Assembly: GCA_951406725.2 (NCBI GenBank)
Contig: OX597827.1
Coordinates: 79,360,001-79,424,000, forward strand
DNA length: 64,000 nucleotides
Origin: Octopus vulgaris
Taxonomy: Eukaryota
Reading direction: 5' to 3'
The position numbers are program-made. Within the stretch, counting starts at the first letter, position 1, and each line of letters starts with the position of its first letter. Positions 35,401-38,400 of the stretch are shown in pieces.

Positions 35401-38400
35401 GATTAAGATCATTAGTTAAATGATATAATAGCAAAACTTTTATGTTGTTTTATGCTACAAATGGATGAAGTAAATATAGAAATTAGAATTACACTAAAAC
35501 AGGAGCTTAGCAAATTAAATATAACATACAATGAGCCCAATATACTGTCATCAATGATAATATAGAGAAGGGTATTTGTAGTATTTCATGTATCAGAGAT
35601 GTAAATCAAGGGTCATAATAGATGCCCTGCAAGGCCCTTTATGTGTGATGTGTGAAAGAAACATAGAGTTGATATTTTTATATGAATATAAAGTATTGTA
35701 TAAGATTTGGTGTGTGAGAGAATCATTTAACAATAGTCATGGAACATCTACTATGTTGGCTGTAGATAGGTATCTTGTATTTGTTGTCCCTTTAGTATTG
35801 TGGCTGCCACTGGATTGTCATTGGTATATTCTGCAAAATATCAAATATACAAACACAAATTACATTTCAATATAACAACTCCAATATATAAAGTTAGAAA
35901 CATTGATCTTATATTACACTAAGCATAACATTATATATTGTCCTACAGTAATAAAGGCAATTACATTTATATGTTATGTTTCGATAAAAGTTACCTGGTT
36001 CTGCAGGTATCTCATCATATGGTTTAGTCTTGCCATTACTCTTGCTAGCTTCTCTGTCCTTTTGGGATGTTAAGGTGTCACTGTTGTAGTTAGACAGGTT
36101 GGAACTGATGTGACCTTCTCGACTATGGATAGAAACATATCTCAGTTGATTATAGAAAAGATAAAAAATTATATTGATACAAATCTAGATCTTACCTAAT
36201 AAAACAGTCATTGTATAAAAAGTGTTGTATTTCTATAATAGGCATTGAAACTGTTTAAGTATCACTAAACAAAAATGAATAATTAATTCAGAAAGTCACA
36301 GATAAACAATAAATTTTAAGCAAAGGAATAAAACTGCTCATACACATGAGTTTCTAAAATTGATAATTTATATAAATATTTGAACATGTGTGAATAATCA
36401 CTAAAATACTTTTGCATTTAAAATCAAAAGGATATCAGAGACATAAAATGATATTTACCTGAGGAACAGGTGAGAAGTCTCCTCTGTGTTGTTCAGAATT
36501 TCCTCTCATCTGGTGTCTGTTCCATCTCCAGAAAAAAACTGACTTTTAAACTCTATTGTCTGAAGATTTCAGTTAAATATCTCTTCTGCATTTCTTGCAA
36601 TTGTCTCATCTCAGTCTGAGAGAGAAAGTTGGGATTCTCTGCTGTTGTGGGTGCGTTATTTGTGTGATTAATACATCTGAAAACACACAGTGTTATGGAC
36701 ACTACAATAGCCACAGATAGTATCACAGCTGCTGCTACAATGATAATTATCCAAGTCATATTCAGGTCATGACCAGACTGGAATGGCACAGCAGTCAACA
36801 TTGGAGATGTATCATTACTAACAAACAGTGTTAGTATGATAGCAGTTGTTGCTGATTGAACTGGAGTACCACTATAAACTCCAGCTAATATTAAAGACTT
36901 TAAGAACATGATATTTTGTTATGTAACCACAATATATTACAAAGTAGAGTAAATGTTTTTTTTTAAGTCAATAGCATGTTCTATTGTGTTAGCAGTGCTA
37001 TTACATCACTTGCTAAGGTCAGCTCATATGTTTCTGAAACATTTTGGTAACTTGTCTGAGAAAGATAACACATCAGCGTGTAAGTTCAGCACCCAGCACA
37101 CTCTGTAAAGTGGTTGGTACTAAGTAGGACATCCAGCTGTAGAAATCCAGCCAAAACAGATAGCTCCTGTCAAACTGTGCAACCCATGCTAGCATGGAAA
37201 ACAGATATGAAATGATGATGATGATGGATCTCAGTATTCCATATGTGAGGAAAGCATTGTTTCCAGTGTCTTTGTCAGATGCTTTCAGAATTGTGATGTC
37301 CTTCTTACTGTGTGGATGGTAGTGGACATCGAGATTGTAAGGGTCATTATTAGGAAACGTAAAATACGGAGCATTATCATTTTTATCTAGAATCTCAATA
37401 ACAATATTGGCAGTGTCATTGAGAGAAGGTGTTCCATTATCTTTCACTAAAACCTTGAACTTATAGATGTCTTTCATTTCTCGATCTATTGATTGTGATG
37501 TAGAAAAAAATCCATATTTTGTCAGTTGGAAAGGAATGTTATCATTGTTGTTATCATTGATGATAGAATATGTAAGTTGGCCTCCATCTCCAAGATCAGG
37601 GTCTGTAGCATTGATGAAGCCAATAGGGAAGTCAACTTTCTGGTTTTCATAAGTGAGGAATTGGAATGTCTCTTTGGTAAAATGTGGCTCTACATCATTG
37701 ACATCAGTTACTTTGACAGAGAACTGCTTCTTAGTCTTTAACAGAGATGATTCCATGTCATGATATACAACAGATGTTTCTTTGTCAAAGTGTCTTCTAA
37801 TAATAGAATGTAACATCCACATTATGTCCAACATCATTATTAATTATTGCACCACAAGCTAAAAAAGTAAACAGAATAATGATTAGTGAATTGTGACAGA
37901 CACTATAATCTGAAGAACTGTAACATTAATAAAGAAGTTACAAAAAATTCTCTAGCAAATCTAAATTATTTATTTTAAAATTTCTATCTATAAGCTAGAA
38001 ATAAACTGAAGGATAAATTATAGTTAAAATATGAAGTCTTTGTCCATTTTGTTATATCTAAATTCATTAGAAATAAGATCATAATCTAAACCCTGTATAT
38101 TTTTTATTACGAGATGTTAATAGTTTAGAAAACTATATTTGATTTTTATTAACATTTGACACATGTACACATTAATATTTAAAATACCCTTCTTTGGAAC
38201 AGAATCTTTTACTATCTTTTGCTAAAAATTTTCTGCATAAAGTTCCAATGTAATTGCCAGTGCAGTACAGTCTGTTTTTGGTGTAAAGTTTCTGAAGAAA
38301 GAAAACAAAGCTCAGAAGAATGCATGAATTTCTACATCAACTTTTGTGAATTACAAATATTTAGCATTCCTTACTAAAGATTGAAACATCTCAGAAGCAT

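What the first reader, a model, noticed from the sequence alone, without database searches (positions are those of the whole stretch)
35751..37830. Dead pseudogene carrying pristine tracts: footprint of ongoing gene conversion
Decayed and fresh sequence alternate with sharp edges. 37227-37722 (EC5 to mid-EC6) and ~36600-36870 are almost identical to the functional genes, whereas the adjacent 37019-37087 and 37723-37830 are heavily mutated. The middle exon is identical from 35995 to ~36088, then abruptly diverged with a dead acceptor. Fresh tracts stop at or near insertions. Selection cannot explain identity in a gene lacking EC1-3, so this is the best internal evidence for conversion, and the pseudogene might also act as a donor.
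Basis: partly seen in the sequence, partly recalled or inferred. Interest (0 to 1): 0.7.

Follow-up and report, generated by a model that had tools for sequence, protein, structure and literature searches.

The report
Old octopus protocadherin pseudogene, partly overwritten
A broken, truncated protocadherin gene copy in an octopus gene array is an alternating patchwork of old, decayed sequence and stretches almost identical to its working neighbours, which is best explained by the neighbours repeatedly copying their sequence into it (gene conversion), a process already known from vertebrate protocadherin clusters.

Summary
The window is an Octopus vulgaris tandem array of four protocadherin genes (minus strand) plus a 5'-truncated unprocessed pseudogene at about 35400-37870. 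Against the four genes, three tracts of the pseudogene (37225-37723, 36599-36872, 35751-36088, 1111 aligned sites) differ by 1.4-1.7%, as little as the genes differ from each other. Interleaved pieces (37724-37830, 37020-37088, 36089-36123) differ by about 25%. The clustering is far beyond chance (0 of 10000 permutations). Five of six tract ends sit on an insertion, deletion or end of homology.

An O. bimaculoides protein model shares three of the pseudogene's lesions: a 56-bp deletion, an 18-bp deletion and a SINE-like insertion. The gene was therefore dead before the species split. Yet the EC5-EC6 tract carries 0 of 166 shared decay residues, against 9 of 38 in the flank.

Synonymous divergence among the four working genes falls from 0.6-0.97 (EC2) to 0-0.08 (EC5 to tail), so the whole family evolves in concert.

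Interlocus gene conversion is supported. One correction: part of the "heavy mutation" at 37724-37830 is the signature of another paralog lineage, not decay. This is a new example of a known kind, of moderate interest.

The parts
35400..37870 (-). Unprocessed, 5'-truncated protocadherin pseudogene (psi). It keeps the end of EC4, EC5, EC6, TM, the cytoplasmic tail, both introns, exons 2 and 3, and the 3' flank. It lacks the signal peptide, EC1-EC3 and most of EC4.
   Evidence: BLASTN and tblastn against the window. No further upstream homology was found. Alignment.
37724..37830 (-). Old segment A (end of EC4). 31 private substitutions in 107 sites. Deletions of 56 bp (after 37810) and 18 bp (after 37777).
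   Evidence: Both deletions and the LKTKKQF signature are shared with the O. bimaculoides model P0126.
37225..37723 (-). Fresh tract B (EC5 to mid EC6). 3 private substitutions in 499 sites, no indel.
   Evidence: The change point at 37723/37724 comes.
37089..37224 (+). Insertion 1: a 5'-truncated copy of a dispersed SINE-like repeat with an (ATG)n tail. It replaces about 21 bp of the gene and supplies the stop of the 256-codon frame.
   Evidence: Copies at 18144-18307 (minus strand), 50372-50538, 53339-53491 and 5115-5180. The same junction is present in P0126.
37020..37088 (-). Old island C (EC6) between the two insertions. 10 private substitutions in 69 sites, plus a 2-bp deletion.
   Evidence: Scan statistic: 5 of 10000 permutations.
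36887..37019 (.). Insertion 2: 133 bp, with no other copy in the window, flanked by direct AGCTG repeats (37020-37024 and 36882-36886). A 10-bp deletion follows at about 36872/36873.
   Evidence: Pairwise alignment, the sequence itself, and the repeat search.
36599..36872 (-). Fresh tract D (end of EC6, TM, start of the cytoplasmic tail). 4 private substitutions in 274 sites. It ends at a 31-bp deletion.
36459..36598 (-). Intermediate segment E (end of exon 1). 8 private substitutions in 138 sites and two 1-bp insertions (36538, 36473). The GT donor is intact.
36144..36458 (-). Intron 1. Diverged in all copies; the pseudogene is closest to c2 and c1. The acceptor is dead (TG in place of AG at 36144-36145).
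36089..36143 (-). Old segment G (5' part of exon 2). 9 private substitutions in 52 sites, plus a 3-bp insertion at 36089-36091.
35400..36088 (-). Fresh tract H. It covers the rest of exon 2 (35995-36088), intron 2 (35831-35994), exon 3 with its stop (35751-35830) and the 3' flank. 10 mismatches and 0 gaps in 689 bp against copy 4.
   Evidence: Exon limits come from the annotated proteins P0018 and P0006.
28576..31029 (-). Copy 4, exon-1 frame (817 codons). It is 100% identical to the O. vulgaris protein P0018 over 75% of the query. It is the likely partner of tract H.
15440..17860 (-). Copy 3, exon-1 frame (806 codons).
8169..10679 (-). Copy 2, exon-1 frame (836 codons in the stop-to-stop listing, which runs past the donor site).
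2000..4411 (-). Copy 1, exon-1 frame (803 codons). A T-run one base shorter than in the other copies shifts the frame in the cytoplasmic tail.

Best explanation
This is an old, unprocessed, 5'-truncated pseudogene in an Octopus vulgaris tandem protocadherin array. It was already dead before O. vulgaris and O. bimaculoides separated: two deletions and a SINE-like insertion are shared between the species.

Since then, non-allelic (interlocus) gene conversion from the neighbouring working paralogs has overwritten at least three stretches:
- EC5 to mid EC6;
- the end of EC6, TM and the start of the tail;
- the rest of exon 2, intron 2, exon 3 and the 3' flank.

Conversion needs homology, so tracts stop where homology is interrupted. 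A 69-bp piece trapped between two insertions, the head of exon 2 behind a 3-bp insertion, and the deeply diverged end of EC4 have escaped and keep the pseudogene's true age.

The pseudogene is a bystander in a family-wide, domain-restricted concerted evolution. That process keeps EC1 and EC5-to-3'UTR nearly identical among the working genes while EC2-EC4 stay diverse.

Shown: the mosaic, its significance, identity at neutral sites, conflicting relatives between segments, and the shared lesions. Inferred: the direction (genes into pseudogene), the number of events (one patchy event or several), and that some conversion came after the species split.
For: - Organism and family: Cadherin repeats (Pfam E=3e-73). 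The best named hits are O. vulgaris (100% identity) and O. sinensis protocadherins (1716 proteins at E<=0.001 among 8000 scored candidates).
- Mosaic: in the fresh tracts (1111 columns) the pseudogene is 1.44-1.71% from the copies, and the copies are 0.90-1.44% from each other. In the old pieces (208 columns) the figures are 24.5-25.0% and 1.9-4.3%.
- Significance: (0 of 10000, 5 of 10000 and 2 of 10000 permutations).
- Neutral sites: intron 2 is 95.7-98.8% identical, and the 3' flank 35400-35639 is 97.5% identical to c4 but only 70-73% to c1-c3. Of the 3 private changes in tract B, my codon reading of the alignment makes two synonymous and one I-to-F.
- Conflicting relatives: intron 1 groups the pseudogene with c1 and c2; the 3' flank groups it with c4.
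- No single donor in the window for tract B: 13 informative sites are shared with changing subsets of the copies.
- Tract ends: 5 of 6 lie at an indel or an end of homology.
- Age: P0126 (O. bimaculoides, 259 aa, 92% identity over 99% of the frame) carries the same ML|HS junction of the 56-bp deletion, the same 6-codon deletion and the same gene/repeat junction.
- Residues shared by both species' pseudogenes and absent from 9 working or other paralogs: 9 of 38 columns in A against 0 of 166 in B (Fisher 1.2e-7).
- Differences between the two species' copies: 13 of 88 codons in A plus the repeat tail against 3 of 166 in B (Fisher 1.1e-4; counts read).
- Family context: dS among c1-c4 is 0.62-0.97 in EC2 and 0.00-0.08 from EC5 to the tail.
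- Artefact control: the same mosaic appears at protein level in an independently assembled species.
Against: - No read-level data and no nucleotide sequence of any other octopus could be examined, so the assembly itself is unverified.
- Species-specific homogenisation could be tested only through one protein model.
- The calibration behind 'after the split' is rough. It rests on 13 amino-acid differences and an assumed 0.76 non-synonymous fraction. At the lower confidence bound, the chance of seeing 3 or fewer private changes in B is 0.03.
- Both species' pseudogenes share K in ITILKAS and KFKVLV. This is compatible with tract B being inherited from their common ancestor, although both states also occur in working paralogs.
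- The 5' edge of tract B has no indel. It coincides with the point where another working lineage (P0046/P0132 type) also becomes identical to c1-c4, so this edge may be inherited from the functional ancestor rather than set in the pseudogene.
- The 256-codon frame is open in both species, so weak selection on B cannot be formally excluded.
- Segment E is only marginally distinct from the fresh tracts (130 of 10000 at 140 sites; 1039 of 10000 at 32 sites).
Confidence: 0.8

Rival explanations
1. Assembly or polishing artefact. Short or long reads from the working paralogs were used to 'correct' the pseudogene, creating false identity.
For: The locus is a tandem array whose copies are 99-100% identical over kilobases, a setting where mis-mapping happens. 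No reads were available to me.
Against: - Polishing cannot turn about 25% divergence into 1.5% with base-sharp edges.
- The fresh tracts keep 10 private variants in 1111 sites and carry minority alleles, for example 37284 shared with c2 only and 37313 shared with c1 and c4.
- The same decayed, pristine and repeat-derived pattern appears in the protein model P0126 from a separately assembled species.
Confidence: 0.05
2. Recent segmental duplication or unequal crossing-over stitched young pieces of working genes onto old pseudogene pieces. This would be a chimera made by crossovers rather than by conversion.
For: The 689-bp 3' tract matches the adjacent copy 4 without a gap and beyond the region that the family shares. 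A single crossover or duplication junction could produce that.
Against: - Fresh, old and intermediate segments alternate at least six times within 2.4 kb while staying collinear with the gene. Crossovers would need to be as many and would change copy number or spacing.
- The lesions inside the mosaic are older than the species split.
Confidence: 0.07
3. The 256-codon frame (37073-37843) is a working, truncated gene, and purifying selection keeps EC5 to mid EC6 unchanged.
For: - The frame is open in both species and ends at the same LTR stop.
- O. bimaculoides annotation lists it as 'protocadherin beta-2-like'.
- B changes about eight times more slowly than its flanks between the species.
Against: - Selection on a protein does not hold synonymous sites. 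B differs from the working copies at 6-11 of 499 sites, although the lineages are old.
- Tracts D and H lie outside that frame, behind the stop, frameshifts and a dead acceptor, and are just as fresh.
- The product would lack a signal peptide, EC1-EC4 and the TM.
- No such model appeared for O. vulgaris or O. sinensis among the 13 hits.
Confidence: 0.05
4. Uniform age with local hypermutation. The pseudogene is young everywhere, and the diverged pieces were damaged by error-prone repair around the insertions and deletions.
For: Old pieces lie next to indels.
Against: - The diverged states of segment A are shared with O. bimaculoides (9 of 38 columns), and part of them with another working paralog lineage. 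They are therefore inherited, not local damage.
- Intron 1 is also old, and it is c1/c2-like.
Confidence: 0.02

Closest known systems
Gene conversion in vertebrate clustered protocadherins (Noonan et al. 2004, Genome Res 14:354). I could not open this paper. I cite it as quoted in PMC6339937 (passages) and PMC2764143 (passages).
   Same: Tandem protocadherin genes in which EC5, EC6 and the cytoplasmic part are homogenised at synonymous sites while EC1-4 or EC2-3 stay diverse. PMC2764143 gives highest-to-lowest dS ratios between ectodomains of 79.5-1280 in zebrafish and 38 to more than 94 in fugu. Here the pairwise dS values are 0.62-0.97 in EC2 against 0.00-0.08 from EC5 onward.
   Different: - Octopus genes each carry their own 3' exons instead of splicing to shared constant exons (stated in PMC9068888, and visible here). 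Homogenisation therefore also covers exon 2, intron 2, exon 3 and the 3'UTR.
- EC1 is homogenised too.
- The expansions are independent in the two phyla.
Suggested gene conversion in cephalopod protocadherin arrays (Albertin et al. 2022, PMC9068888, passages read; Styfhals et al. 2019, PMC6339937, passages read, citing Albertin et al. 2015).
   Same: The same gene family and the same proposal. PMC9068888 speaks of 'homogenization through gene conversion' and of fragmentary reading frames that 'may represent pseudogenes'. [quoted passage not shown]
   Different: In the passages I read, conversion is inferred from tree shape and similarity. Here it is shown at base level in one locus, with tract limits, neutral-site identity and a cross-species date. 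My searches found no paper describing conversion tracts or a converted pseudogene in an octopus protocadherin array. Supplements were not consulted.
Pseudogenes that exchange sequence with working paralogs (textbook cases recalled from memory, not checked here: CYP21A1P/CYP21A2, GBAP1/GBA1, chicken immunoglobulin V pseudogenes).
   Same: A dead tandem duplicate stays locally near-identical to its working neighbour through non-allelic conversion. Tracts are short and patchy.
   Different: In those cases the documented flow is mostly from pseudogene to gene, with disease or diversity as the result. Here only the flow into the pseudogene is supported, and donor activity is untested.

Membership tests
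Interlocus (non-allelic) gene conversion tract | A mosaic of high and low identity between paralogs, with clustering of differences beyond chance. | tested here: met
   Maximum chi-square 162.8, reached by 0 of 10000 permutations; scan statistics reached by 5 of 10000 and 2 of 10000. Distances are 1.4-1.7% in fresh tracts against 24.5-25% in old pieces.
Interlocus (non-allelic) gene conversion tract | Identity holds at sites free of selection (synonymous, intronic, flanking). | tested here: met
   Intron 2 is 95.7-98.8% identical; the 3' flank is 97.5-100% identical to c4. dS is 0.00-0.08 in the homogenised half of the working genes against 0.62-0.97 in EC2.
Interlocus (non-allelic) gene conversion tract | Different segments of one copy have different closest relatives. 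| tested here: met
   Intron 1 is closest to c2 and c1 (77% and 73%, against 54-57%). The 3' flank is closest to c4 (97.5%, against 70-73%). Segment A is an outlier carrying another lineage's motif.
Interlocus (non-allelic) gene conversion tract | Non-reciprocal transfer with an identifiable donor that remains unchanged. | tested here: inconclusive
   Copy 4 is the only window copy matching 35400-35639, but the direction cannot be read from two sequences. Tract B matches no single window copy (13 informative sites). Its donor may lie outside the window.
Interlocus (non-allelic) gene conversion tract | The exchange is younger than the duplicate itself. | tested here: met
   Three lesions are shared with O. 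bimaculoides P0126. There are 0 of 166 shared-derived residues in B against 9 of 38 in A. Dating relative to the species split is only approximate.
Interlocus (non-allelic) gene conversion tract | The pattern is real in the genome, not made by assembly. | not testable with these tools
   No reads and no eukaryotic nucleotide collection were available. Indirect support comes from the independent O. bimaculoides protein model.
Unprocessed (duplicated) pseudogene | Keeps introns and flanks of the parent unit and carries disabling lesions. | tested here: met
   Introns 1 and 2 and the 3' flank are aligned. Lesions are 5' truncation, 56-, 18-, 2-, 10- and 31-bp deletions, two insertions, two 1-bp insertions and a dead acceptor.
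Protocadherin (cadherin superfamily) | Tandem extracellular cadherin repeats, a single TM and a cytoplasmic tail. | tested here: met
   Pfam Cadherin, 5 stretches, E=3e-73 in copy 4, and 4.5e-15 in the pseudogene frame. Named protocadherin relatives. The TM was read from the translations, not predicted by a tool.
Vertebrate-type clustered protocadherin locus | Many variable first exons spliced to one shared set of constant exons. | tested here: not met
   Every unit, including the pseudogene, has its own exons 2 and 3 directly downstream.
SINE-like retroposon (insertion 1) | Dispersed copies, a simple-repeat 3' tail and target-site duplication. | tested here: inconclusive
   Four other copies in the window and an (ATG)n tail. 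No target duplication is seen, and about 21 bp of the gene are missing at the site. The 5' head is absent, so a tRNA-like origin was not tested. The name SINE is from recall.

The most novel reading that the evidence does not exclude
In octopus, where protocadherin genes do not splice to shared constant exons, gene conversion itself acts as the 'constant region'. It keeps EC5, EC6, TM, the tail, the small 3' exons and even intron 2 nearly identical across separately transcribed genes, and is selectively tolerated only there. This would be a recombinational route to the arrangement that vertebrates reach by splicing. Long-lived pseudogene fragments such as this one, kept pristine in exactly these domains for longer than a species' lifetime, would then be part of the exchanging pool and could serve as occasional donors. 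The K in ITILKAS, shared by both species' pseudogenes and by copy 2 alone among the four genes, is a weak hint.
Probability: 0.3. Interest if true: 0.6.

Novelty: new member of a known kind. Interest (0 to 1): 0.4.

Why it matters
The pseudogene is an internal control. It shows that near-identity of the 3' halves of octopus protocadherin genes is produced by recombination, not only by selection or recent duplication. This has practical consequences:

- Trees and orthology calls for the more than 100 octopus protocadherins should be built from EC2-EC4 only.
- Duplication ages taken from whole-gene similarity will be too young.
- Short-read expression counts will cross-map in the homogenised half.
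- At least one public annotation (O. bimaculoides 'protocadherin beta-2-like', 259 aa) is probably this pseudogene.

It also adds a base-level example of the same domain-restricted homogenisation that is known in vertebrate clusters, in an independently expanded family.

Tried and rejected
- Recursive single-break segmentation found only the 37723/37724 break, because small islands cannot be found with one breakpoint. I replaced it with scan statistics.
- A search for remnants of EC1-EC4 upstream of 37830 (tblastn, relaxed blastn) gave nothing beyond 37823 except low-complexity matches.
- Insertion 2 has no other copy in the window apart from one 23-bp match at E=0.009. Its nature stays unknown.
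- Pfam scans of 11 open frames outside the genes gave only a reverse-transcriptase fragment and a PHD/C1-like piece. Nothing was found for the conserved intergenic element.
- MAFFT misplaced the gene/insertion-2 junction. I corrected it by pairwise alignment.
- One search failed on a frame slip of mine and was replaced.
- Noonan et al. 2004 could not be opened.
- No nucleotide comparison with another octopus was possible.
Exon 1 and the pseudogene frame were searched on their own, and exons 2 and 3 were placed by eye against annotated proteins.
- Structure prediction, complex prediction and RNA-family searches were not used because they do not bear on the question.
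Full report
**What the window is**

The window holds four long open frames of 803-836 codons on the minus strand (2000-4411, 8169-10679, 15440-17860, 28576-31029) and a 256-codon frame at 37073-37843 (translations).

- Copy 4 has five cadherin repeats (Pfam E=3e-73), and the short frame has one (E=4.5e-15).
- A protein search gave 1716 proteins at E<=0.001 among 8000 scored candidates. It includes an Octopus vulgaris 'protocadherin beta-15-like' that is 100% identical over 75% of copy 4, and O. 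sinensis relatives at 84-87%.
- Annotated proteins fetched show that each gene continues, after ...PPVPQ, into two small exons. I located these in every unit by alignment.
- I searched exon 1 and the pseudogene frame on their own.
- Self-comparison shows a repeat unit of about 6-13 kb containing gene, introns, 3' flank and an intergenic element. A fifth, incomplete unit lies at about 34250-37870.

**Checking the observation**

I aligned the pseudogene (psi) with the matching parts of copies c1-c4 on the minus strand and corrected one junction by pairwise alignment. In the table, 'private' means different from all four copies.

| Segment | Coordinates | Identity or private sites | Other features |
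|---|---|---|---|
| A | 37724-37830 | 68-69%; 31 of 107 private | deletions of 56 and 18 bp |
| B | 37225-37723 | 97.8-98.8%; 3 of 499 private | no indel |
| Insertion 1 | 37089-37224 | - | 5'-truncated dispersed repeat with an (ATG)n tail; four other copies in the window |
| C | 37020-37088 | 10 of 69 private | 2-bp deletion |
| Insertion 2 | 36887-37019 | - | 133 bp between AGCTG direct repeats, followed by a 10-bp deletion |
| D | 36599-36872 | 4 of 274 private | ends at a 31-bp deletion |
| E | 36459-36598 | 8 of 138 private | intermediate; two 1-bp insertions |
| Intron 1 | 36144-36458 | diverged in all copies | ends in TG instead of AG |
| G (exon 2 head) | 36089-36143 | 9 of 52 private | 3-bp insertion |
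| H | 35400-36088 | 10 mismatches, 0 gaps in 689 bp against c4 | rest of exon 2, intron 2, exon 3, 3' flank |

Pooled distances:

| Class | Columns | psi to copies | Copies to each other |
|---|---|---|---|
| Fresh (B+D+H1-3) | 1111 | 1.44-1.71% | 0.90-1.44% |
| Old (A+C+G) | 208 | 24.5-25.0% | 1.9-4.3% |
| E | 138 | 6.5-8.0% | 0.7-2.2% |

**Is it more than chance?**

Over 1457 aligned sites with 65 private mismatches:

- The maximum chi-square is 162.8 with the break at 37723/37724. 0 of 10000 permutations reached it; the largest permuted value was 45.3.
- The longest run without a private mismatch is 288 sites, against at most 246 in the permutations.
- The dispersion index is 5.9, against at most 2.2.

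Within 35751-37723 (1350 sites, 34 mismatches), scan statistics gave:

- Island C is recovered, with 10 mismatches in 69 sites (5 of 10000).
- With C removed, the stretch covering E and G stands out, with 12 in 140 (2 of 10000) and 6 in 32 (22 of 10000).
- With C and G removed, E alone is only weakly distinct, with 8 in 140 (130 of 10000) and 4 in 32 (1039 of 10000).
- What remains has 10 private mismatches in 1111 sites (0.90%).

Five of the six tract ends coincide with an insertion, a deletion or the end of homology. The exception is the 5' end of B.

**Why selection or uniform decay cannot explain it**

- The fresh tracts include intron 2 (95.7-98.8% identity) and the 3' flank (97.5-100% to c4).
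- Tracts D and H lie behind the stop, frameshifts and dead acceptor of the pseudogene.
- The segments have conflicting relatives. Intron 1 is closest to c2 and c1 (77% and 73%, against 54-57% for c3 and c4). In 35400-35639 psi is 97.5% identical to c4 but 70-73% to the others.
- In B, the 13 sites that vary among the copies are shared with changing subsets of them, so no single window copy is the donor.
- The working genes show the same phenomenon among themselves. Pairwise dS is 0.62-0.97 in EC2, 0.21-0.51 in EC3 and the first part of EC4, and 0.00-0.08 from EC5 to the tail. Sliding identity is 97-100% over EC1 and over EC5 to the 3'UTR, but 57-93% over EC2-EC4 and about 35-85% in intron 1.

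**The sister-species check**

Searching the 256-codon frame gave 13 proteins at E<=0.001 among 240 candidates. The best is P0126, an O. bimaculoides model of 259 aa named 'protocadherin beta-2-like', with 92% identity over 99% of the query. Its sequence and the alignment show:

- the same out-of-frame head joined at ML|HS, which is the 56-bp deletion;
- the same missing six codons, which is the 18-bp deletion;
- the same junction GIL(R/K)S|IIIIIS into the repeat-derived tail, down to the same ...LTR stop.

The gene was therefore already broken in the common ancestor of the two species. Further counts:

- Residues shared by both pseudogenes but absent from nine other paralogs occur in 9 of 38 aligned columns of A. 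Three of these lie in the frame-shifted head. They occur in 0 of 166 columns of B (Fisher 1.2e-7).
- Between the two species, A plus the repeat tail differ at 13 of 88 codons plus a 5-codon indel, and B at 3 of 166 (Fisher 1.1e-4; counts read, test).
- The O. bimaculoides B tract is no closer to the O. vulgaris pseudogene (3 differences) than to working copy 2 (3) or copies 1 and 3 (4) (138 stored proteins searched, 45 rows shown).

This also makes an assembly artefact unlikely, because the mosaic recurs in a separately assembled genome.

**A rough date**

If the 13 differences are neutral and 76% of random changes alter the residue (my assumption), divergence between the species is about 6.5% (3.4-11%), or about 3.2% per lineage.

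- Without conversion since the split, B should carry about 16 private changes; it carries 3. The probability is 8e-5 at the point estimate and 0.03 at the lower bound.
- The 1111 fresh sites should carry about 36; they carry 10. The probability is 3e-7 at the point estimate and 0.017 at the lower bound.

Conversion after the split is therefore likely but not proven. On the same scale, C, G and A have gone unconverted several times longer than the species' age, and E has an intermediate age.

The end of A next to B reads ...SS(L/P)LKTKKQF. 'PPLKTKKQF' is the native sequence of another paralog lineage (O. bimaculoides P0046 and O. vulgaris P0132), whereas c1-c4 have 'PQLESKKYF'. Downstream of that point all lineages are the same.

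Part of the 'heavy mutation' in A is therefore deep paralog divergence. The sharp 37723/37724 edge coincides with a family-wide limit of homogenisation. It may be inherited from the functional ancestor, or it may be held in place because conversion cannot extend into sequence that is about 30% diverged.

**Mechanism proposed**

Non-allelic gene conversion, homology-dependent and copying without reciprocal exchange, moves sequence among array members. In the working genes it is seen only where it does not erase recognition diversity: EC1 and EC5 to the 3' end. The pseudogene takes part passively. Heterologies stop or exclude tracts: the repeat insertion, the 133-bp insertion and several deletions. 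As a result, a 69-bp piece between two insertions and the head of exon 2 keep the old sequence. The number of events (one long patchy heteroduplex or several) and the direction are inferred, not shown. Copy 4, the physical neighbour, is the only window partner for the 3' flank.

**Comparison with what is known**

- Domain-restricted homogenisation of EC5, EC6 and the cytoplasmic part by gene conversion is established for vertebrate clustered protocadherins. This is Noonan et al. 2004, which I could not open, as quoted in PMC6339937 and PMC2764143.
- PMC2764143 uses the same dS criterion and gives highest-to-lowest ratios of 79.5-1280 in zebrafish and 38 to more than 94 in fugu (passages).
- For cephalopods, Albertin et al. 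2022 propose 'homogenization through gene conversion' and mention fragmentary frames that may be pseudogenes (PMC9068888, passages). Styfhals et al. 2019 repeat the suggestion of Albertin et al. 2015 (PMC6339937, passages).
- Four full-text searches and a look into the 2026 cuttlefish genome paper found no description of conversion tracts or of a converted pseudogene in octopus protocadherins. Supplements were not read.

This is therefore a well-resolved new example of a known process, not a new kind of thing.

**What stayed unchecked**

- Reads for this assembly.
- Any nucleotide sequence from another octopus.
- Expression of the 256-codon frame.
- The identity of insertion 2.
- Donors outside the window.

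Noticed in passing
window 2000-31029 (exon 1 of copies c1-c4): Synonymous divergence among the four working genes is strongly domain-dependent. It is 0.62-0.97 in EC2 and 0.00-0.08 from EC5 to the tail, and EC1 is also 97-100% identical. This matches the pattern described for teleost and mammalian protocadherin clusters, but in an independent expansion.
   Followed up: partly
window about 2075-2082 (copy 1, cytoplasmic tail): Copy 1 has a T-run one base shorter than copies 2-4. Its frame therefore shifts and ends at 2000 without reaching the usual ...PPVPQ donor. This is either a homopolymer sequencing error or a second, very young pseudogene. The pseudogene has the same run one base longer (36538).
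   Followed up: no
P0126 (O. bimaculoides protein): The public annotation of O. bimaculoides lists the pseudogene frame as a protein-coding gene ('protocadherin beta-2-like', 259 aa). Its last 50 or so residues are translated from a dispersed repeat, so this is probably a mis-annotated pseudogene.
   Followed up: partly
window 6100-6704, 12958-13634, 26431-26992, 34251-34929: An element of 600-700 bp occurs once per repeat unit between genes. It is 86-91% identical by BLAST, with many indels. It contains CTG/GTA-rich imperfect tandem repeats and gives no convincing Pfam match in its open frames: one sub-threshold TRAPPC13_C hit at E=0.006, 17 bits against a cut-off of 27.9. It could be a promoter or 5'UTR element of the next gene, or an old repeat.
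   Followed up: partly
window 40022-41762 and 42117-43787: A large inverted duplication (about 1.7 kb arms, 91% identical). Its outer parts are arrays of a 45-bp tandem repeat (about 20 and 18 copies), which produces long spurious open frames on both strands.
   Followed up: no
window 19059-19781 and 49660-50191: Two related pieces (86% identity over 481 bp) carry a reverse-transcriptase fragment (RVT_1, E=6.6e-10) and a PHD/C1-like zinc-finger piece. The first lies in the GC-richest part of the window (45%). These are probably retroelement remnants.
   Followed up: no
window 37284 and the matching site of copy 2: The K of ITILKAS is present in the pseudogenes of both species, in copy 2 only among the four window genes, and in the broken O. 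sinensis model P0127. It is a weak candidate for transfer from pseudogene to gene, or an old shared polymorphism.
   Followed up: no
P0127 (O. sinensis) and P0132 (O. vulgaris): Two other short protocadherin models break off inside EC5 and both run into the same unrelated peptide (...IHLWYDDLTLNL...). This suggests further pseudogene fragments that share one insertion or junction elsewhere in the array.
   Followed up: no
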